From: an uncultured virus (IMG/VR IMGVR_UViG_3300028377_000002)
Taxonomy: Duplodnaviria > Heunggongvirae > Uroviricota > Caudoviricetes
Length of the DNA stretch: 64,000 nucleotides
Virus record (IMG/VR): IMGVR_UViG_3300028377_000002
Strand: one strand, 5' to 3'
Both the position numbers and the translations under genes were made by a program. Positions 3,898-56,214 of this stretch are shown here, piece by piece; the first letter of the stretch is position 1; every line of letters begins with the position of its first letter. The notes below the pieces were generated by a model, which was not told the DNA's origin, searched no databases, and worked only from the letters and a program-made list of their open reading frames with translations.

Positions 3898-4161
3898 ATG
3901 CCAATTTTAATAAAAAAAATAAACGGAGGTGTAATATCATATTTTGGTGGGGGTAATAATGATTTCTCAGCAAAAATACATTTCGTTAGAAGAATAGAGG
4001 GTAAAGCTGGTGTTGAAGATTATATTTTATTACCACCTAACTTTGAAGCGTTTACACAGGATTTCAGTTCGGTTATTGAAACTGAATTTTGTGAAACATC
4101 ACCAAATAATTACGGTTTAAATACGTGTTCAACCTATACTAATGTAAATATATCATTTTAA
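3898..4161 (+). CDS. Hypothetical protein
   Basis: ORF coupled to next gene by TAATG overlap. Confidence 0.55.
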   Translation: MPILIKKINGGVISYFGGGNNDFSAKIHFVRRIEGKAGVEDYILLPPNFEAFTQDFSSVIETEFCETSPNNYGLNTCSTYTNVNISF

Positions 4162-5597
4162 TGAGATTTCAAGAAAAAAATATAATACGAAACCCACATA
4201 ATATCCTTAGAAACAAGGATAATGTGAACGTTAGTATGAGTTCAGATTTTTGCGAATTCGAAAAACCTATATTTGAGATGGTGGGCGGTGATAAGGTAAT
4301 GACTGGGGTAACAACATCAGATGATGAGATTCATGTAATTGATAGTGAAAATACTTTAGATTTGTCATTCTCTTTTATAGATAATGTTGATAGTTTTATT
4401 GATGTTGATACAACCTTTAGATATAGGATTTATAAGTACAATAATAACTCAACTACATTTAGTTCACCACCAGTATTTGATTCTGGCCCTATTGAATGGG
4501 ATGATTTTAGTGGTACTAGTGCATTTACAGACTCAATACTTGTATCTGAGTTAAACATAGATGGAGAGTATCTAATAAAGGGTAGTTATAATTATGGGAC
4601 ATGTACAGATATACTAACAGCTTTAGGTGATAGAAATGACACTTTTAAATTAGTTGGCGATGAATTCGGGTTATATGAAGAAGACTTTGATTATTACTTT
4701 GCAGCTATAAATGCTGCAACTAGACCTATTTTCACATTAACGCCTAATCCAGACATAGCATTAGGCGCTCTTAGGGTTGAATCATTTGTAAGTGATGAAG
4801 GTGCTACCAACGAAGTAACCACAACTTCTAACTGGTCAGGTAGGCCAATCGTATCTGTAAATGGTATTACCTTATTCGAGGGCGAAGACGCCGATTTTGT
4901 AACAGTAGGTACAAATAAAATAGTATTTAATGGTATAGACTCAATAAAAATTGATGATATAATAACAATTGCTTACGTGAGTTCGGGTAATGCAAATGGT
5001 CTAGTTTCAGAATCTAAATTAATAAATAACCCTATTGTATCTGGCGTAACAGGTGAAGAAGGGTCAGAGGTAATATATTTTAACACTGACACTAACAAAT
5101 ACGAAATATTTACACTAACAGAGCCAGTTGAATTTAACGACTTAATTATTACATTAAACGGTATTACTCTGGCTAATGGAGGTGACTACAATCAATCAAG
5201 TAGTGACCCGACTAAGGTTATCTTAAACGGTGAATTAGAGCAATCGGATATTATTACAATAACATATAATTCTTTTGGAACATTTGTTGGAACCGTTAAC
5301 GTAGATAATTTTGATGTGTTATGGACCGTATCACCACAACCAATAAATACCAATGGCAGATTCATTTTATATGCAGCTGATGATGAATCCTTTTCAGCTA
5401 ACACCATAATATACTCAGCAACCACTGATTATGTTGTTAACAATGCAACCTATGGGGTGAATGTTGATTTAAGCTCTTATAGTGGAACTGATGTATTTTA
5501 TAAGGTAGTTAATGAGAAAAATTATGAGTTGTTAAATGGCGATACAATTTCACTATTAACTGATAGTGAAGTGGTACCGATAACCTTACAACTATAA
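4161..5597 (+). CDS. Putative tail/virion protein with internal beta repeats
   Basis: Two xNGITL...D.ITIxY repeats; highly acidic. Confidence 0.55.
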   Translation: MRFQEKNIIRNPHNILRNKDNVNVSMSSDFCEFEKPIFEMVGGDKVMTGVTTSDDEIHVIDSENTLDLSFSFIDNVDSFIDVDTTFRYRIYKYNNNSTTFSSPPVFDSGPIEWDDFSGTSAFTDSILVSELNIDGEYLIKGSYNYGTCTDILTALGDRNDTFKLVGDEFGLYEEDFDYYFAAINAATRPIFTLTPNPDIALGALRVESFVSDEGATNEVTTTSNWSGRPIVSVNGITLFEGEDADFVTVGTNKIVFNGIDSIKIDDIITIAYVSSGNANGLVSESKLINNPIVSGVTGEEGSEVIYFNTDTNKYEIFTLTEPVEFNDLIITLNGITLANGGDYNQSSSDPTKVILNGELEQSDIITITYNSFGTFVGTVNVDNFDVLWTVSPQPINTNGRFILYAADDESFSANTIIYSATTDYVVNNATYGVNVDLSSYSGTDVFYKVVNEKNYELLNGDTISLLTDSEVVPITLQL

Positions 5598-34358: not shown

Positions 34359-35048
34359 ATGGAGAACCTATCGAAAGATTTTAAAAAGTACGCAAAAGAT
34401 AAATTCAACGTATCATCTAGCCAGTTCGAAGAATACCTTAAAAGCTATGCTACAGCAAAGGGATTACCAATGGACTCAATGACACCATACATCTTAGAAG
34501 AAAGAGAGATGAGGGTAACTCAAATGGATATATTCTCTAGGATGATGAGAGAAAGAATCCTATGGGTATCTGGTGAAGTAAATCAATATATGAGTGATGT
34601 GGTTAAAGCACAAATTCTTTACTTAGCTAGTGTAAGCTCAGAAGATATCACGATGTACATTGACTCACCAGGCGGGTCCGTCTTAAATGGCCTATCAATG
34701 ATTGATACAATGGAGCTTGTTAAACCTGACATTAAGACGATTAACAACGGTTTATGCGCTTCAATGGGTTCAGTATTATTAGGCGCTGGGGCTAAGGGTA
34801 AAAGACTAGCTTTACCAAATAGCTTTGTTATGATACACCAAGTATCATCTGGATATCAAGGTAACATTCAAGATATTGAAATATCATATAAATTATCTCA
34901 AAGACTTAATGATAGGTTATTTAAATTATTAGGTAAGTATTCAGGTAAAACTGAAGAGATTGTTAAAAATGATGCAGTCAGAGACCTATGGTTAGACTCG
35001 GAAGAGGCTAAAGAGTATGGATTAGTGGATGAAATAATAGGAGAGTAG
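34359..35048 (+). CDS. clpP: ClpP protease subunit
   Basis: DIFSRM, YIDSPGG, CASMG (Ser), MIHQ (His), RDLW (Asp). Confidence 0.95.
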   Translation: MENLSKDFKKYAKDKFNVSSSQFEEYLKSYATAKGLPMDSMTPYILEEREMRVTQMDIFSRMMRERILWVSGEVNQYMSDVVKAQILYLASVSSEDITMYIDSPGGSVLNGLSMIDTMELVKPDIKTINNGLCASMGSVLLGAGAKGKRLALPNSFVMIHQVSSGYQGNIQDIEISYKLSQRLNDRLFKLLGKYSGKTEEIVKNDAVRDLWLDSEEAKEYGLVDEIIGE

Positions 35049-35148
35049 TAATTTTAACTAAGGCCCTACGTTATTAGTAGGGCCAAAGTTAATAAAGTAT
35101 TTACATTTTTTTCTACATACTTATAATAAACAAGTTCTTTAACATAAT

Positions 35149-35517
35149 GGGGGTGACTGGATTTGACCAGAGATAGACTGAGAGATACAGCATGTAGTGT
35201 TAGATTGGAAACACTTAAATACTCTATCAAAACTTTTAAATGGCGACATTTTAAACGTAGAAGAAAATTTCTTTGCAACAGCTTCTAGGAGCTTTGCTGG
35301 AGAGGTGGCTGTAGCCTAATTACAGCAAATGGTGGTAGCCCACCAAGAACCTGATGTTAAACAGTAAAATAATCGGATAGTACTTAACGTTAAAGTGCAA
35401 AACTTTTGGAAGGGATTAGAAACCTTAACCTGTTTGGATGAATCATTAAACATACCTAAACATGTAGACGGATTTTGATTCGTTTTTGGGACGTGGGTTC
35501 GAATCCCACCACCTCCA
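35149..35517 (+). ncRNA. ssrA: tmRNA
   Basis: 5' GGGGGTGACTGGATTTGAC, 3' GTGGGTTCGAATCCCAC-CACCTCC-A with G3-U70; tag ORF 35242-35319 GDILNVEENFFATASRSFAGEVAVA*. Confidence 0.92.
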
Positions 35518-35578
35518 CAATTAAAAAAAGCCATAATTTAAATTATGGCTTTTTTGTTTTAAGTAATTAAATTAACAT

Positions 35579-37862: not shown

Positions 37863-38981
37863 ATGAGACTTTCAAAGAAAATAGAACTTCCAAAAGACGT
37901 GTTCGTGATGCATCACATCATGAGTCTACACGATAAAGAACTACATGTTGTAGGTGGAGCAGTTAGAGACTCACTATTGGGAATAAAACCAAAAGATTGG
38001 GATTTAGTAACTGACGCAAAACCATCTGAAGTGAAAGAAATATTTAGCGAATCTGAATTCGTTAATAATGTTCTGGATGTAGGCGAATCATTCGGTGTTA
38101 TTATCTTAGTAACCGACTCTGGTGAATACGAAGTAGCCACTATGAGAGCTGATGTGGGTAAGGGTAGAAGACCAGACTCAGTTAGTTTTAAATCAACTAT
38201 GAAGGAAGACGTCATGAGAAGAGGTTTAACAATGAACGCATTGTTTTACGATATTGGTAGTGGTGAAGTGGTCGACTTAGTTGGTGGTGTCGAAGACATT
38301 AAAAATGGTGTTGTTAGAGCTGTAGGTAAAGCTAGTGAAAGATTCGACGAAGACAGACTTAGAATACTTAGAGCAATTAGATTTGCTGGTAGATTTGGTT
38401 CCGACTTGGATAAAGAAATAGATGAGTTTTTAATTAAAGACAATTCACTTCAAGGCGTATCTGGTGAAAGAATTAGAGATGAGTTTATTAAAGGAATTAA
38501 ATCAGCTAAGTCAACCAAACACTTTTTAGGTATGATTGATAAGTACAACTTATTCCATACAATATTTGGTGGTTTGGAGCCAATTAACAAAGAGTTTGTT
38601 GAATCTAATGACGAGCTACTAGTGATTAGTAAGTTGTTAAGTGAAGCACCGCACAAAATTATAGGCAAAAAACTTAACTCAATTAAATACTCTTCGGATG
38701 AAGTTAGAAAAATAACTTTTTTAGTTAGATTTTTACAGTCATTTAGTAAGGACACTTTCTACGACTTGAAGAAAATACACTCAATATCTAAGTTAGATGA
38801 TGGTTTATTTAAAGAATTCAGTGAAGTTATGAGTATAAACTCTCAACTAGTTAAAAACTTTATTGAATTTAACTTCACCGTAGATGGTGGTGATGTGATG
38901 GATGAGTTTAAATTAAAAGCTGGCCCTGAATTAGGTAAGAAAATTAAATGGTTAGAGACCAGTAAATTTTTTAGCGTATAA
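37863..38981 (+). CDS. cca: CCA-adding tRNA nucleotidyltransferase
   Basis: VGGAVRD..DWD, RRGLTMNAL, EDRLRILRAIRF, SGERIRDE. Confidence 0.88.
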   Translation: MRLSKKIELPKDVFVMHHIMSLHDKELHVVGGAVRDSLLGIKPKDWDLVTDAKPSEVKEIFSESEFVNNVLDVGESFGVIILVTDSGEYEVATMRADVGKGRRPDSVSFKSTMKEDVMRRGLTMNALFYDIGSGEVVDLVGGVEDIKNGVVRAVGKASERFDEDRLRILRAIRFAGRFGSDLDKEIDEFLIKDNSLQGVSGERIRDEFIKGIKSAKSTKHFLGMIDKYNLFHTIFGGLEPINKEFVESNDELLVISKLLSEAPHKIIGKKLNSIKYSSDEVRKITFLVRFLQSFSKDTFYDLKKIHSISKLDDGLFKEFSEVMSINSQLVKNFIEFNFTVDGGDVMDEFKLKAGPELGKKIKWLETSKFFSV

Positions 38982-43736: not shown

Positions 43737-43815
43737 ACGAGCGCATCCATTGGAGAGGTAAGCGGTCTCCAAAACCGTGGCTTAGGCCCTGCTGGTTCGA
43801 CTCCAGCCGTTCGTG
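43737..43815 (+). tRNA. tRNA-Trp(CCA) with extra variable hairpin
   Basis: A1-U72, G73; GCGGT-CTCCAAA-ACCGT; GCTGG-TTCGACT-CCAGC. Confidence 0.65.
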
Positions 43816-43826
43816 CAATTATAAAC

Positions 43827-44574: not shown

Positions 44575-44664
44575 GGCCATGTATCCGAGGGGGACTTCTA
44601 ACCCCTTATCCGTAAATGGAGATGAGATAATATCAAATGGGGGGTTCGAATCCCTCCATGGTCA
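44575..44664 (+). tRNA. Rearranged tRNA-like RNA, Arg(TCT)
   Basis: GGCCATG/CATGGTC acceptor, no 5' D-arm, CTTCTAA loop, long insert before T-arm. Confidence 0.55.
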
Positions 44665-44672
44665 CAAAACAA

Positions 44673-46091: not shown

Positions 46092-46200
46092 GGGGTAGTA
46101 GCTCAGTTGGTAGAGCAAATTGCGGATTAAATGATTTGAAAAATCGCCTTGCTAAAAGGGAATCAGTTATAGGTCGTAGGTTCAAGTCCTACCTACCCCG
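46092..46200 (+). ncRNA. tRNA-like RNA with branched anticodon domain
   Basis: Perfect acceptor, D and T arms; anticodon arm replaced by two hairpins. Confidence 0.7.
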
Positions 46201-47715: not shown

Positions 47716-48504
47716 ATGAAACATAATAGAGCCTTTCTAGAGCAGTTGAATGGTGAATGGTTAGACGACTTTGTTTACATATCAAAGGAACGTTTAAAGG
47801 ATATGGACTTTGAAGTAATTCCTTTCGACGGCGATGATATAGAAAACACACTATCTTGTTATGTACTAGACATATCCAAAGACATAATAATAGGTTCAGT
47901 TGAATCAACCACCGTCTTCTTTAAAGAATGTGGCGTTGAAGTACCTGAATATTTAGGGTACCCAAAACAATTAAGAGAGTTTTTAGGTAGAGACATACGT
48001 GAACATCAATTTAACTATCTGTATAACTTAGACACACCGTTTTTTATCAAACCAAGTAAAGGGGTGAAAAAATTTACAGGCTGTCTAATAGATAATGTTA
48101 AAAGTTTGCAAATGATAAGTGAATTCTACGATGTTAAGGATAATGATGGTATATTTGTATCTGATAAAGTAGAATTTGTATCTGAATATAGATGTTTTGT
48201 ACACGAAGAAGAATTAAAGGGTATAAAACACTACTCAGGCGACTTTAAAGTGTTTCCTAACGTAGATATCATAGAAAAGATGATAGAGTCTTACACGGAA
48301 GCTAATTGCGCTTATACATTAGATGTGGGTGTTGATAAAGAAGGTAATACTTTATTAGTTGAAGTAAACGATATGTGGGCCATTGGTTCATATGGTTTTG
48401 ATGCTAGAACTTAGGTTCTTATGTGCGTAAGGAGAATGTTTGAAATTGGTAGGCAAAATAATGGTGAAAAAACTCCATTATGGAAAAAGATTCGAAGAGA
48501 TTAA
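47716..48504 (+). CDS. ATP-grasp protein (R2K/DUF4343-like) with in-frame TAG at 48412-48414
   Basis: FFIKP..KKFTG, SEYRCFV, YTLDVG..LVEVND..GSYG; frame stays open 29 codons past TAG. Confidence 0.7.
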
Positions 48505-50466: not shown

Positions 50467-50886
50467 ATGAATTTTAAGAAAAAAGATTTGGAGTTAAAAG
50501 AAACTAATAATCACGCTAATGTAGTGCTTATAAACCCAGAAGGGTATATTTGTCTAGTCTCTAGGAAAGACAATCACACTGATTTCGGTTTGATTGGAGG
50601 TAAAGTAGAAGATGGTGAGAGTTATGAAGATGCCGCAGTGAGAGAAACTAGGGAAGAAACTGGTTTAGAGATAAGAAACTTAAGGTTAATATTTGCAATG
50701 CATAAATCAGGTAATATGGGAAAGACCTTTATTGCTGATTATTCAGGAGAAATTAACTATGATAAGGATGCTGAACCACATGTAGTTAAATGGGGTGCAA
50801 TTCAAGAAGCTATCGATGGTAAATTCGGTTATTGGAACGCCTTAGTTAAGGAGTGTCTATTGAGTTTGGGCGTTAATTTTAGATAA
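50467..50886 (+). CDS. NUDIX hydrolase
   Basis: GGKVEDGESYEDAAVRETREETGL. Confidence 0.9.
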   Translation: MNFKKKDLELKETNNHANVVLINPEGYICLVSRKDNHTDFGLIGGKVEDGESYEDAAVRETREETGLEIRNLRLIFAMHKSGNMGKTFIADYSGEINYDKDAEPHVVKWGAIQEAIDGKFGYWNALVKECLLSLGVNFR

Positions 50887-50902
50887 TAAAAGTAAAATAT
50901 GA

Positions 50903-51045
50903 AATATTCTAAAAGAAGGTTTAAAAATATATGGTGAGGAACTCGCCATTACAAAGGTGGAGAGGAAATCAGACGTTAGTAATAACGCACACTCTATGAA
51001 GCCCGAAGCCCATCCCATCGCCTCTGGCGTGGGTGGGTAGTTCAC
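50903..51045 (+). mobile_element. IS200/IS605 tnpB 3' remnant and right end (omegaRNA region)
   Basis: Encodes NILKEGLKI (TnpB C-terminus), CCCATCCCA..TGGGTGGG hairpin, ends TAGTTCAC. Confidence 0.72.
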
Positions 51046-51098
51046 TATTGCAATGTGAATTTCTATATAGAAATTTAGAATTACTTAGTTTTGATTAA

Positions 51099-54360: not shown

Positions 54361-54414
54361 AGTTTTTTCATTATTCCCTTGCATATTTAAATATATATTT
54401 GCAATGGAATAATT

Positions 54415-54487
54415 GGTCGATTAGCTCAGTTGGAAGAGCGGGAGATTCTAAACCTCTTAGTCATCGGTTCGAACCCGATATCGACCA
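54415..54487 (+). tRNA. Amber suppressor tRNA (CTA)
   Basis: GGTCGAT/ATCGACC acceptor, GCTC/GAGC D-stem, GGAGA-TTCTAAA-CCTCT, ATCGG-TTCGAAC-CCGAT; own promoter TATATTTG at 54394. Confidence 0.82.
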
Positions 54488-54522
54488 CTAAATAAAAATG
54501 TGTAACTTAAAAACAAAAAAAA

Positions 54523-54891
54523 ATGAAAGACACTTAGATTGCAAGGCAAGAACCTCAGAAACTCTACGTAGTGGGGAGAAAAGATTTACCACTATCCTAT
54601 CAGGCTGTCCAAATGGGTCACGCCGCAATAGACTTCCAACATAAACACTCAAGTATAGCAAAAGACTGGAATCAAAATTCAAACTATTTAGTATTCCTCA
54701 GCGCTAAAGATGAGAAACATTTAGAAGTCTTACTTCAAAAAGCAGAGTTCAAGGGTCTCAAAACAACTTCTTTTAGAGAACCTGACATCAACAACGAACT
54801 TACAGCTATTACAATAGAACCATCTAAAATTACTAAAAAGTTAGTTTCTAACTTACCGTTATTTGGAAAAAAGGTATCGTCATGTGTATAA
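54523..54891 (+). CDS. Peptidyl-tRNA hydrolase (Pth2-like) with in-frame TAG at codon 5
   Basis: MKDT*IARQEPQKLYVVGRKDL..QAVQMGHA..W..FREPDINNELTAI. Confidence 0.72.
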
Positions 54892-56038: not shown

Positions 56039-56110
56039 GCGCAGGTTCCAGAGCGGCTATGGTGTTGCCCCGCAAGGCAATGTAGGGTGGTTCGAATCCA
56101 TCCCTGTGCT
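56039..56110 (+). tRNA. tRNA-Cys(GCA), atypical anticodon loop
   Basis: GCGCAGG/CCTGTGC, U73, TTGCC-CCGCAA-GGCAA. Confidence 0.65.
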
Positions 56111-56214
56111 CTTAAAATTAAATAAAATGAAATAGATAAAAATTAGAGGTCCAACTTACGTAGTTTTCAATTAGGAGATTAAAAAAAATAACAAAATACG
56201 TAAAATTTAAAAAT

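What the first reader, a model, noticed from the sequence alone, without database searches (positions are those of the whole stretch)
54394..54891. Amber-suppressor tRNA directly upstream of a Pth2-like gene that needs amber read-through
Seen: a promoter, a clean cloverleaf with CTA anticodon (54448-54450), and 35 nt later an A-rich leader with ATG AAA GAC ACT TAG ATT..., in frame with the Pth2-like ORF. The family's first strand (KLYVVGRKDL) starts upstream of the GTG chosen by the ORF track, so the ATG before the TAG is the plausible start. The genome is not globally recoded: long ORFs are open in the standard code and TAG ends dnaJ and clpP. Inference: a conditional switch where Pth is made only when the suppressor outcompetes RF1; otherwise a 4-codon minigene (MKDT) is made, reminiscent of lambda bar minigenes that generate peptidyl-tRNA.
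Basis: partly seen in the sequence, partly recalled or inferred. Interest (0 to 1): 0.87.

Follow-up and report, generated by a model that had tools for sequence, protein, structure and literature searches.

The report
Amber-gated phage Pth2 gene with its suppressor tRNA
A large phage that otherwise uses the normal genetic code carries a tRNA that reads the UAG stop codon right next to a small tRNA-recycling enzyme gene that can only be made in full if a UAG at its fifth codon is read through, and this pairing is kept in dozens of related phages, including cultured ones.

Summary
ARAGORN and Rfam both call a tRNA with anticodon CUA at 54415-54488. An ATG lies 35 nt downstream (54523), followed by three sense codons and an in-frame TAG (54535-54537). 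The frame then runs into a PTH2-family gene ending at 54891. The GTG picked by ORF callers (54571) lies inside the first beta-strand of the predicted Pth2 fold.

The arrangement is conserved. I examined 88 homologous loci, which form 67 clusters at 90% identity. In 62 clusters the gene begins with a start codon, 1-6 sense codons and TAG, with no ATG/GTG/TTG before the first strand. In 53 of those 62, ARAGORN finds a same-strand CUA tRNA within 3 kb.

The signal and the tRNA change together. One locus has TAA with a UUA tRNA. One has an out-of-frame leader ending in UGA-A beside a tRNA with an 8-nt loop and anticodon UUCA. Klebsiella phage RaK2 has neither.

The window and two complete relatives (Serratia phage BF, and a 362-kb record) are not TAG-recoded.

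Best reading: programmed amber read-through by the phage's own suppressor gates Pth2 synthesis. Why it is gated is inferred only.

Seven full-text searches found no published description. Cultured phages (BF, GAP32, ME3, Arash, pT24) carry it, with the gene unannotated or cut short.

The parts
54386..54413 (+). promoter-like site (TTTAAA-16-AATAAT) just before the tRNA; weak
   Evidence: 9 of 12 consensus matches. The region gave 6 sites against 2.7 +/- 1.7 in shuffles. Function not shown.
54415..54488 (+). tRNA with anticodon CUA (amber suppressor type). Anticodon at 54448-54450, loop UUCUAAA, discriminator A, no encoded CCA.
   Evidence: ARAGORN. Rfam RF00005, 62.1 bits. Cloverleaf MFE with an A31.C39 mismatch. 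70.6 bits with a model built from 58 CUA tRNAs, the window's own among them, so it matches by construction.
54489..54522 (+). A-rich spacer and 5' leader with no Shine-Dalgarno-like sequence
   Evidence: Sequence. Poly-A length varies by one base among strains, upstream of the ATG.
54523..54534 (+). leader codons ATG AAA GAC ACT (M-K-D-T)
   Evidence: The same leader peptide occurs in L018 and L137; the 18 nt including TAG ATT are identical in L018, and L137 shows the same ACT, TAG and ATT. Their Pth2 proteins are about 50% identical to the window's.
54535..54537 (+). in-frame TAG that must be read through, followed by A (ATT)
   Evidence: The position is conserved in 62 of 67 clusters. The base after the TAG is A in 41, G in 20, C in 1 and T in 0 of 62.
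54538..54891 (+). Pth2-like body (117 codons plus TAA). First beta-strand at 54562-54579. ORF-caller start GTG at 54571.
   Evidence: Pfam PF01981. PDB profile match. AF2 model pLDDT 91.3. Foldseek 3erj_A TM 0.77, E 1.3e-7.
47716..48504 (+). R2K ATP-grasp gene with a second in-frame TAG (48412-48414). Homology continues for 29 codons beyond it.
   Evidence: Pfam R2K_2. The TAG aligns with Tyr (TAT/TAC) in all 17 homologous loci, including a contig identical over the 232 residues before the TAG. Run X3 has TAG; runs X4, X7 and X9 have TAC.
35149..35518 (+). phage tmRNA (context: translation-rescue genes in the same window)
   Evidence: ARAGORN. Rfam RF00023, 106.6 bits.
37863..38981 (+). CCA-adding enzyme-like gene (context: could complete the tRNA, which encodes no CCA)
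   Evidence: Pfam PolyA_pol head domain, E 3.2e-35. Its role for this tRNA is inferred.
34359..35051 (+). clpP ending in TAG followed at once by TAA (tandem stop)
   Evidence: In 5 of the 7 real TAG-ended genes (an eighth listed ORF lies inside dnaJ) the next in-frame stop comes 0-17 codons later; dnaJ runs on 30 codons and the ATP-grasp gene 29, the latter conserved.

Best explanation
This is a programmed amber read-through unit. Translation of the Pth2-like gene starts at ATG 54523 and meets UAG at codon 5. It continues only when the phage's own tRNA(CUA), encoded 35 nt upstream, decodes that UAG in competition with the host's release factor 1. Read-through gives the complete Pth2 fold carrying a short N-terminal extension (MKDT-X-IARQEPQ). 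Termination gives only a tetrapeptide.

Pth2 output is therefore tied to how much active suppressor tRNA the infected cell holds. The stop lies at the very start of the gene, where an aborted product costs almost nothing, and it is followed by a purine. From recalled E. coli work, that context favours suppression.

Shown here: the anatomy, its conservation, the co-location of tRNA and gene, and the co-variation of tRNA and stop signal.

Inferred: that read-through happens in vivo, which residue is inserted, and why the gene is gated. My preferred purpose is that the phage couples a peptidyl-tRNA-clearing enzyme, part of a translation-rescue gene set, to the activity or timing of its suppressor.
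For: 1. No other start codon. In 62 of 67 clusters (88 loci) there is no ATG/GTG/TTG between the TAG and strand 1, and a start codon (61 ATG, 1 GTG) lies 1-6 sense codons before the TAG. The window's GTG is lineage-specific. It falls at residue 12, inside strand 1, which spans residues 9-14.

2. The stop itself is kept while the leaders differ: MK, MT, MTH, MKDT, MCL, MKKPFYY and others. The MTH leader shows synonymous variation (ACA/ACT/ACG, CAT/CAC), so it is read as codons.

3. tRNA linkage. 53 of 62 TAG clusters have an ARAGORN cta tRNA in the fetched locus. All 81 such tRNAs lie on the gene's strand. In 19 clusters the tRNA ends within 150 nt upstream of the TAG. A model built from 58 CUA tRNAs finds tRNA-like sequences with a CUA loop upstream of the gene in three more loci: L009 at 53.9 bits, L018 at 38.7 and L122 at 37.6.

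4. Co-variation.
- L027 has ATG ACG TAA with a tta tRNA.
- L148 has the leader ATG AAA CAC TCC ACT ATG TTG followed by UGA-A. Reading UGAA as one step enters the Pth2 frame. The tRNA directly upstream has a 5-bp anticodon stem, an 8-nt loop and anticodon ttca, as called by ARAGORN.
- L148's nearest relative, L171, uses TAG with cta.
- RaK2 has an ordinary ATG start and no cta tRNA in its 8.3-kb locus.

5. Standard code otherwise. Open frames of 100 codons or more cover 0.81, 0.87 and 0.85 of the window, BF and G002. Reading TAG as sense adds more cover than the TGA control only in the window (+0.055 against +0.021) and less in BF and G002. The gene-dense regions at 100-240 kb are already 0.89-1.00 open.

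6. Cultured phages BF, GAP32, ME3, Arash, pT24 and RsoM2USA show the same design.

7. The TAG is present in 6 of 6 near-identical contigs. It is unchanged in the contigs of runs X3, X4 and X9.
Against: - There is no expression, proteomic or enzymatic evidence. No RNA run holding the stretch was listed.
- The window's tRNA has an A31.C39 mismatch in its anticodon stem. Its charging and amino-acid identity are unknown.
- ARAGORN finds no cta tRNA in two complete relatives, G002 and G003. Rfam's general tRNA model scores the upstream tRNA-like sequences below its cut-off, at 23.7 and 19.5 bits. My own model scores ordinary tRNAs highly too.
- RsoM2USA has none within 4 kb, and LR756511 and LR756504 have none within 3 kb. 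Their whole genomes were not searched.
- L027's gene carries a later frameshift, so the TAA/tta case may be a decaying gene or a sequencing error.
- In L148 a TTG right after the UGAA could serve as an ordinary start.
- In 51 of 62 clusters the codon after the TAG is ATT, ATA, GTT or GTA. This leaves some room for unusual initiation.
- In mycobacteriophage Catera the sequence is ATG TAG GTG. The annotated GTG start has a well-placed GAAGG, so read-through is not needed there.
Confidence: 0.75

Rival explanations
1. The TAG is a true stop of a tiny upstream ORF. Pth2 is started separately, either at the window's GTG 54571 or at the near-cognate codon right after the stop (ATT, GTT, GTA) by termination-reinitiation. 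On this view the tRNA is merely a neighbour.
For: The window has a GTG 11 codons after the TAG. The codon after the TAG is ATT, ATA, GTT or GTA in 51 of 62 clusters. Catera has ATG TAG GTG with a well-spaced GAAGG before the GTG.
Against: A GTG start removes half of strand 1. No canonical start lies between the TAG and strand 1 in 62 clusters. 11 of 62 clusters have ACT, ACA, ACG, CTT, AAA, AAC, AAT, GAA, GGC or GGT after the stop. This reading does not explain the same-strand CUA tRNA in 53 of 62 clusters, nor the TAA/tta and UGAA/ttca pairs. From recall, initiation at GTA, ACN or GGN has no precedent in bacteria.
Confidence: 0.1
2. The phage is in an early stage of general TAG reassignment. 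The suppressor is efficient throughout infection, and the Pth2 TAG is just one tolerated sense-like codon with no regulatory role.
For: Other in-frame TAGs exist: the window's ATP-grasp gene, TAG against an invariant Tyr; BF's HD-like gene next to Pth2; a methyltransferase in L172; and internal TAGs in the Pth2 of L023, L024, L025, L035, L100 and L139. Borges et al. propose this route from suppressor gain to recoding (passages read).
Against: A neutral TAG should drift to a sense codon. Instead it is held at the same early place in 62 of 67 clusters whose proteins have diverged to 40-60% identity, while the other TAGs are sporadic and lineage-specific. TAG still ends about one gene in ten in the window, often with a back-up stop close behind. 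No excess of TAG-joined frames appears in BF, G002 or G003.
Confidence: 0.12
3. The gene is broken (a nonsense pseudogene) or the TAG is an assembly error.
For: Annotators of BF, the Erwinia pEa_SNUABM phages, GAP32 and Arash left the gene out or cut it short.
Against: Six of six independent near-identical contigs, and contigs of three further runs, carry the TAG. 16 columns are invariant among 15 proteins of 39-58% identity. The model is confident. The stop position is the same in 62 clusters.
Confidence: 0.02

Closest known systems
Suppressor tRNAs of stop-codon-recoded phages (TAG read as an amino acid in crAss-like, Lak and other gut phages; Borges et al., bioRxiv 10.1101/2021.08.26.457843, passages read)
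   Same: A phage-encoded tRNA(CUA) overrides a host stop codon so that phage genes carrying in-frame TAG are made. Those authors propose that the stop codon serves as a post-transcriptional timer.
   Different: In those phages many genes are recoded, mainly structural and lysis genes. Here the genomes read as standard code. One small gene keeps a single TAG at its very start across dozens of lineages, next to the tRNA. 'Hydrolase' occurs 0 times in that preprint.
Orphan CUA suppressor tRNAs of standard-code jumbo phages, such as Xanthomonas phage XacN1 (PMC5852040, passages read)
   Same: Jumbo phages with many tRNAs, a CUA suppressor and a Pth gene.
   Different: The XacN1 authors read through 18 amber stops and found no target. 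In XacN1 itself the Pth2 domain is fused behind an HD-like domain and has no early TAG. The target proposed here lies in a leader too short to be annotated as an ORF.
prfB (release factor 2) autoregulation by an early in-frame UGA (recalled; no paper read)
   Same: An early in-frame stop in a translation-factor gene makes its expression depend on the outcome of a competition at the ribosomal A site.
   Different: prfB needs a +1 frameshift, and its product itself reads the stop. Here there is no frameshift (except perhaps in L148), the decoder is a tRNA, and Pth2 is not known to act on UAG.
Lambda bar minigenes and the Pth dependence of minigene expression (recalled; no paper read)
   Same: A 2-8 codon ORF ending in a stop. 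When it is not read through, it could release short peptidyl-tRNA, which is the substrate of Pth.
   Different: Bar minigenes are free-standing and are defined by toxicity in pth-defective hosts. Here the mini-ORF is in frame with the Pth2 body. No toxicity or drop-off was tested.
PTH2 of jumbo phages (Iyer et al. 2021, PMC7824862, passages read)
   Same: The same protein family. [quoted passage not shown]
   Different: That paper mentions neither the early stop codon nor suppressor tRNAs. 'Suppressor' occurs 0 times.

Membership tests
PTH2 peptidyl-tRNA hydrolase (Pfam PF01981) | Sequence match above the family's gathering score | tested here: met
   38.6 bits against a cut-off of 23, E 1.4e-9, covering profile positions 2-109 of 115. 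A profile of 15 relatives hits the solved Pth2 structures 2zv3, 1rzw/3erj, 1wn2, 1q7s and 1xty.
PTH2 peptidyl-tRNA hydrolase (Pfam PF01981) | Pth2 alpha/beta fold including the first strand | tested here: met
   AF2 model pLDDT 91.3, pTM 0.83. Foldseek 3erj_A TM 0.77 and 2zv3 TM 0.72, probability 1.00. Strand 1 is present only if translation begins upstream of the GTG.
PTH2 peptidyl-tRNA hydrolase (Pfam PF01981) | Catalytic residues and hydrolysis of peptidyl-tRNA | tested here: inconclusive
   The motifs R-x-D-L, Q..Q..HA and F-R-E-P-D-I-N-N are invariant. However, the archaeal 'RDAG(H/L)TQ' loop aligns with 'REPDINN'. Which residues are catalytic is recalled, not tested. Activity is not testable here.
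Amber suppressor tRNA | Cloverleaf tRNA with CUA at positions 34-36, U33 and a purine at 37 | tested here: met
   ARAGORN. Rfam 62.1 bits. The loop is UUCUAAA.
Amber suppressor tRNA | Regular 5-bp anticodon stem | tested here: not met
   A31.C39 mismatch; the MFE shows a 9-nt open loop. The same arm occurs in L021. Most relatives have a regular stem.
Amber suppressor tRNA | Processed, given a CCA end, aminoacylated and active at UAG | not testable with these tools
   No CCA is encoded. A CCA-adding enzyme gene lies at 37863-38981. By recalled identity rules, A73 together with U35 would fit lysine, but this is a lead only.
Stop-codon-recoded phage (TAG reassigned, code 15-like) | Many genes, especially late genes, carry in-frame TAG, and standard-code gene calling fragments the genome | tested here: not met
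   Standard-code open frames cover 0.81-0.87. Reading TAG as sense adds less than the TGA control in BF and G002; in the window it adds more (+0.055 against +0.021). Only sporadic extra TAGs were found.
Lambda bar-type minigene | Free-standing 2-codon ORF whose expression is toxic when Pth is limiting | not tested
   Only the short start-to-stop leader is shared. Here it is in frame with the downstream gene. Toxicity is not testable here.
prfB-type autoregulatory recoding | The product of the gene acts on the recoding stop. A +1 frameshift with an internal Shine-Dalgarno sequence is required. | tested here: not met
   The stop is in frame with no frameshift. No Shine-Dalgarno-like sequence is present. 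Pth2 is not a stop-codon reader (family knowledge, recalled).

The most novel reading that the evidence does not exclude
The suppressor tRNA and the amber-gated Pth2 form a self-contained translational sensor. The tRNA exists chiefly to license this gene and a few neighbours. Read-through at codon 2-8 reports the balance between release factor 1 and working, charged phage tRNA. A ribosome-rescue module is then switched on only when termination or tRNA supply in the infected cell has shifted. That module comprises Pth2 and, in various relatives, an HD-like partner or an RF-like GGQ protein; tmRNA was seen in the window and two relatives.

The decoder and the signal can be swapped as a pair: amber, ochre, or a UGAA quadruplet read by a natural four-base-anticodon tRNA.
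Probability: 0.35. Interest if true: 0.9.

Novelty: new variant of a known kind. Interest (0 to 1): 0.82.

Why it matters
- It gives a concrete, conserved client to the 'orphan' amber suppressor tRNAs of standard-code jumbo phages. Their purpose has been open: the XacN1 authors looked for targets and found none.
- It shows that a small gene is missing or truncated in the annotation of several cultured phages (BF, the Erwinia pEa_SNUABM phages, GAP32, Arash, pT24, RsoM2USA). The claim can therefore be tested at the bench at once.
- It may capture the first step on the road from a standard to a recoded genetic code. One gene is held under a stop-codon gate, while stray TAGs, such as the Tyr-to-amber allele in this window's ATP-grasp gene, begin to be tolerated.
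- It offers natural suppressor-and-target pairs as parts for genetic-code engineering, including a possible quadruplet-decoding pair (L148).

Tried and rejected
- Own genome: not held. The nearest record, G001, lacks this region and lacks the ATP-grasp gene.
- Expression: no RNA run holding the stretch was listed. Only contigs of DNA runs could be laid, so nothing can be said about transcripts.
- Amino acid inserted: internal TAGs of relatives align with variable polar positions (E, D, T, K, S). The window's ATP-grasp TAG aligns with Tyr and L172's methyltransferase TAG with Lys. There is no consistent answer. The 69 distinct CUA tRNAs are very diverse, with different discriminator bases, so they may not share one identity.
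- Other TAG clients: an all-against-all search gave 45 candidates. Most are antisense or off-frame translations of conserved DNA. Only three looked real: BF's HD-like gene, the window's ATP-grasp gene and L172's methyltransferase.
- A scan for 'ATG + up to 3 codons + TAG + long ORF' finds as many hits as the TGA and TAA controls. Pth2 stands out only because it lacks a nearby start.
- Per-locus coding-density tests on 6-kb loci were too noisy to be useful.
- Pfam on the HD-like partner gives only a sub-threshold HD match, E 0.0035.
- XacN1's suppressor target is not explained by this finding, because its Pth2 domain has no early TAG.
- Representative prokaryote genomes gave one hit only: a phage-like 6.7-kb contig binned with a Methanobacterium MAG. 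It gave no host clue.
- No tree was built. Claims about which state is ancestral are therefore not made.
- Literature: seven full-text searches found no paper linking Pth2 with a suppressor tRNA or an early stop. The library lacks most subscription journals, and I did not look at supplements.
Full report
**What is there**

The window is AT-rich (32% GC) DNA of a large phage. It carries a tRNA array at 43.4-47.7 kb, a tmRNA, clpP, dnaJ, a sigma factor, a CCA-adding enzyme, and RNA and DNA ligases.

At 54415-54488 ARAGORN calls a tRNA with anticodon CUA. Rfam's tRNA model gives 62.1 bits. It folds as a cloverleaf, but the anticodon stem has an A31.C39 mismatch. No CCA is encoded.

An ATG lies 35 nt downstream at 54523. 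It is followed by AAA GAC ACT, then TAG (54535-54537), then an open frame to 54891.

That frame is a PTH2-family protein:
- Pfam gives 38.6 bits against a cut-off of 23, with the match starting before the GTG that ORF callers pick.
- A profile of 15 relatives matches solved archaeal Pth2 structures end to end.
- An AlphaFold model has pLDDT 91.3 and superposes on Pth2 structures, with TM 0.77 to 3erj.

Strand 1 spans residues 9-14 after the TAG, and the GTG is residue 12. A GTG start would therefore truncate the core sheet.

**Is the TAG real?**

All six near-identical IMG/VR contigs keep the tRNA and the TAG. Contigs of four lake and salt-lake runs were laid on the region. For X3, X4 and X9, every listed difference lies elsewhere. 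For X7 not all differences were shown.

**Is the genome recoded?**

It is not.
- TAG ends 8 of 75 plus-strand ORFs of at least 75 aa, including dnaJ and clpP. Most run on 0-17 codons to the next stop; dnaJ runs on 30 and the ATP-grasp gene 29.
- Reading TAG as sense opens slightly more frame than the TGA control in the window (0.81 to 0.86 against 0.83) but less in two complete relatives: cultured Serratia phage BF and a 362-kb record with terminal repeats, G002. In both, the gene-dense regions are already 0.89-1.00 open in the standard code.

**Conservation**

Protein-guided searches of viral contigs returned 25 and then 80 loci; the second search found 123 relatives and kept the best 80. Two more came from a search with L148's protein.

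I tallied 88 loci:
- the window;
- 80 distinct IMG/VR loci (L009-L027 and L091-L151);
- L171 and L172;
- five GenBank records (LR756500, LR756501, LR756511, LR756504 and Serratia phage BF).

The six contigs near-identical to the window were left out of the tally, since the window stands for them. The 88 loci form 67 clusters at 90% identity.

In 62 of the 67 clusters the gene begins with a start codon (61 ATG, 1 GTG), 1-6 sense codons and TAG. There is no ATG, GTG or TTG between the TAG and strand 1.
- Leader lengths, counting the start codon, are 2 codons in 36 clusters, 3 in 19, 4 in 5, 5 in 1 and 7 in 1.
- Leader peptides differ between clades (MK, MT, MTH, MKDT, MCL and others). Within the MTH leader the codons vary synonymously.
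- The base after the TAG is A in 41, G in 20, C in 1 and T in 0.

**The tRNA travels with the gene**

In 53 of the 62 clusters ARAGORN finds a cta tRNA in the fetched locus, within 3 kb on either side. All 81 such tRNAs are on the gene's strand. In 19 clusters the tRNA ends within 150 nt upstream of the TAG, as it does in the window.

The nine clusters without an ARAGORN call break down as follows:
- L009, L018 and L122 have a tRNA-like sequence with a CUA loop upstream of the gene. It was found by a covariance model built from 58 CUA tRNAs, at 53.9, 38.7 and 37.6 bits.
- BF has its cta tRNA 3.3 kb downstream.
- L012, L140 and L142 are cut short by contig ends.
- LR756511 and LR756504 have none within 3 kb, and I did not search their whole genomes.

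Against this, ARAGORN finds no cta tRNA anywhere in the complete records G002 and G003. Rfam's general model scores their upstream tRNA-like sequences below threshold.

**Co-variation**

The five clusters without an early TAG are informative.
- L027 has ATG ACG TAA with a tta tRNA 1.8 kb away, although its gene has a later frameshift.
- L148 has a leader in another frame, ATG AAA CAC TCC ACT ATG TTG, followed by UGA-A. Reading UGAA as one step lands exactly in the Pth2 frame. The tRNA directly upstream has a 5-bp anticodon stem, an 8-nt loop and, by ARAGORN's own call, the four-base anticodon ttca, which is complementary to UGAA. A TTG after the UGAA is an alternative start.
- L148's nearest relative, L171 (51% identity), has ATG GCT TAG with a cta tRNA immediately upstream.
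- L024, L025 and L145 start normally. L024 and L025 have an internal TAG and a cta tRNA right after the gene.

Outside the tally:
- Klebsiella phage RaK2 has an ordinary ATG start and no cta tRNA in its 8.3-kb locus.
- XacN1, Xoo-sp13 and RAS14 carry the Pth2 domain fused behind an HD-like domain, with no early stop.
- Lak phages have an N-terminal extension without a stop.
- Mycobacteriophage Catera reads ATG TAG GTG. Its annotated start is the GTG.

**Cultured carriers**

| Phage | Leader | Annotation of the gene | cta tRNA |
|---|---|---|---|
| Serratia phage BF | MTH-TAG | unannotated; also unannotated in six Erwinia pEa_SNUABM records and in Yersinia fHe-Yen9-04 | 3.3 kb downstream |
| Cronobacter GAP32 | MAQ-TAG | cut short | yes; a Sup-tRNA is annotated |
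| Acinetobacter ME3 | MT-TAG | annotated CDS 4004-4303 starts beyond the leader and the TAG | yes; a CTA tRNA is annotated |
| Salmonella phage Arash | ML-TAG | only 50 aa annotated as peptidyl-tRNA hydrolase | yes; annotated as tRNA-Phe |
| Tenacibaculum pT24 | MK-TAG | annotated CDS 4073-4891 starts inside the Pth2 match | yes; a Sup-tRNA is annotated |
| Ralstonia RsoM2USA | ML-TAG | unannotated | none within 4 kb |

The single hit in 185,579 representative prokaryote genomes is a 6.7-kb phage-like contig binned with a Methanobacterium MAG. It has ATG AAA TAG and a cta tRNA.

**Other TAG clients**

The suppressor has a few further, sporadic clients.
- Window, R2K ATP-grasp gene (47716-48504). 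It has TAG at 48412-48414, where all 17 homologous loci have Tyr. One of them is identical over the 232 residues before the TAG and reads TAC. The 29 codons after the TAG are conserved. Run X3 shares the TAG allele, while X4, X7 and X9 have TAC. This is a standing Tyr-to-amber polymorphism.
- Serratia phage BF. The gene right after Pth2 is annotated as two small ORFs. It is one HD-like gene interrupted by TAG. It is homologous to the domain fused to Pth2 in L021 and XacN1.
- L172. A methyltransferase next to the tRNA has a TAG where L019 has Lys.

**How it most likely works**

Translation starts at the leader ATG. Many relatives show a TTGACT-17-TATATTTATA promoter-like motif 5-20 nt before it, so the ATG is the first start on a short or absent 5' leader.

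At the UAG, the phage tRNA competes with release factor 1. Only read-through yields Pth2. The early position makes failed attempts cheap. By recalled E. coli work, the purine after the stop favours suppression.

The stop has been retained over deep divergence, while other TAGs come and go. This argues that the stop itself is selected, which makes it a gate rather than a tolerated codon.

The purpose of the gate is inferred. The neighbourhood suggests a translation-rescue module whose output is tied to suppressor activity or timing:
- tmRNA, seen in the window, L020 and G003;
- an RF-1-domain GGQ protein 1-2 kb upstream in 15 loci;
- initiator-like tRNA-Met genes;
- the HD-like partner.

**Prior knowledge**

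- PTH2 in jumbo phages is known (PMC7824862, passages).
- Orphan CUA suppressors in standard-code jumbo phages are known (PMC5852040, passages).
- Recoding as a timer has been proposed for recoded gut phages (bioRxiv 10.1101/2021.08.26.457843, passages).

None of the passages links Pth2 to a suppressor or to an early stop. Seven full-text searches found no such paper.

Three earlier notes of this scan, on other genomes, reached the same reading. They are not independent evidence, but I re-derived their claim here.

**Verdict**

The mechanism, read-through by the phage suppressor, is likely at about 0.75. The regulatory purpose is open.

Noticed in passing
window 47716-48504 (TAG at 48412-48414): The R2K ATP-grasp gene 'ends' at a TAG that replaces a Tyr invariant in 17 of 17 homologous loci. 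The 29 codons after it are conserved. A contig identical over the 232 residues before the TAG has TAC. Run X3 shares the TAG allele, while X4, X7 and X9 have TAC. This is a standing Tyr-to-amber polymorphism in a phage that carries a suppressor.
   Followed up: yes
L148 2870-2945 and 2960-3030 (IMGVR_UViG_3300033066_002046): A tRNA with a 5-bp anticodon stem, an 8-nt loop and four-base anticodon UUCA (ARAGORN: ttca) sits directly before a Pth2 gene. The gene's leader ends in UGA-A one base out of frame, which makes this a candidate natural quadruplet-decoding pair. A TTG start right after it is the alternative.
   Followed up: partly
L045 3309-3875 (Serratia phage BF, NC_041917 286418-286984): The two small annotated ORFs gp515 and gp514 are one HD-like gene interrupted by an in-frame TAG at codon 47. 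It is homologous to the domain fused to Pth2 in L021, XacN1, Xoo-sp13 and RAS14, and it lies just upstream of Pth2 in L146, L147, L150 and L151.
   Followed up: partly
window 56039-56111: A tRNA-like gene with good acceptor and T arms but a 6-nt anticodon loop (CCGCAA). ARAGORN reports a two-base 'anticodon' gc. Relatives have an ordinary tRNA-Cys(gca) at the matching place downstream of Pth2. G003 and G002 each have a similar odd tRNA, (gc) and (ga).
   Followed up: partly
L009 878-1429 and 14 other loci, 1-2 kb upstream of Pth2: A 184-aa protein with an RF-1 domain and GGQ motif (PF00472, 79 bits in G002), resembling a small release-factor or rescue factor. It accompanies the Pth2/tRNA(CUA) pair in 15 loci. 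It is absent from the window, BF and G003.
   Followed up: partly
G002, G003 and window 43737-43816, 46092-46200, 44575-44665: Many phage tRNA genes are 80-109 nt long although they are not class II types (for example Thr, Gly, Lys, Met, Val, Asp, His and Asn of 84-89 nt). Rfam or my own model finds tRNA-like sequences that ARAGORN misses. This suggests short insertions or introns, or decaying copies.
   Followed up: no
L092, L011, L102, L109, L111, L113, L115, L120, L126, L135, L141 and others, -60 to -1 of the leader ATG: A conserved promoter-like motif, TTGACT, then about 17 nt, then TATATTTATA, lies 5-20 nt before the leader ATG, between the tRNA and Pth2. In L141 the spacing would give a leaderless mRNA. 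The window lacks the motif.
   Followed up: no
L036 3614-3687 (Mycobacterium phage Catera) and L145 3799-3871: tRNAs annotated or readable as Arg(TCT) have the loop CUUCUAA(C/U). They can equally be read as CUA suppressors with a 31-39 mismatch. In Catera the tRNA lies 250 nt after a Pth2 gene that begins ATG TAG GTG.
   Followed up: no
L196 5301-5375 (Salmonella phage Arash): The tRNA annotated as tRNA-Phe is called by ARAGORN with anticodon cta. The 'peptidyl-tRNA hydrolase' CDS next to it is annotated as only 50 aa, because the true start lies before an early TAG.
   Followed up: partly
window 50811-51057: Contigs from all four laid runs pile up here, with summed depth up to 980 against about 5-65 elsewhere, and many have loose ends at 50993-51049. 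A short repeat or mobile element appears to be shared with many other sequences in these lakes.
   Followed up: no
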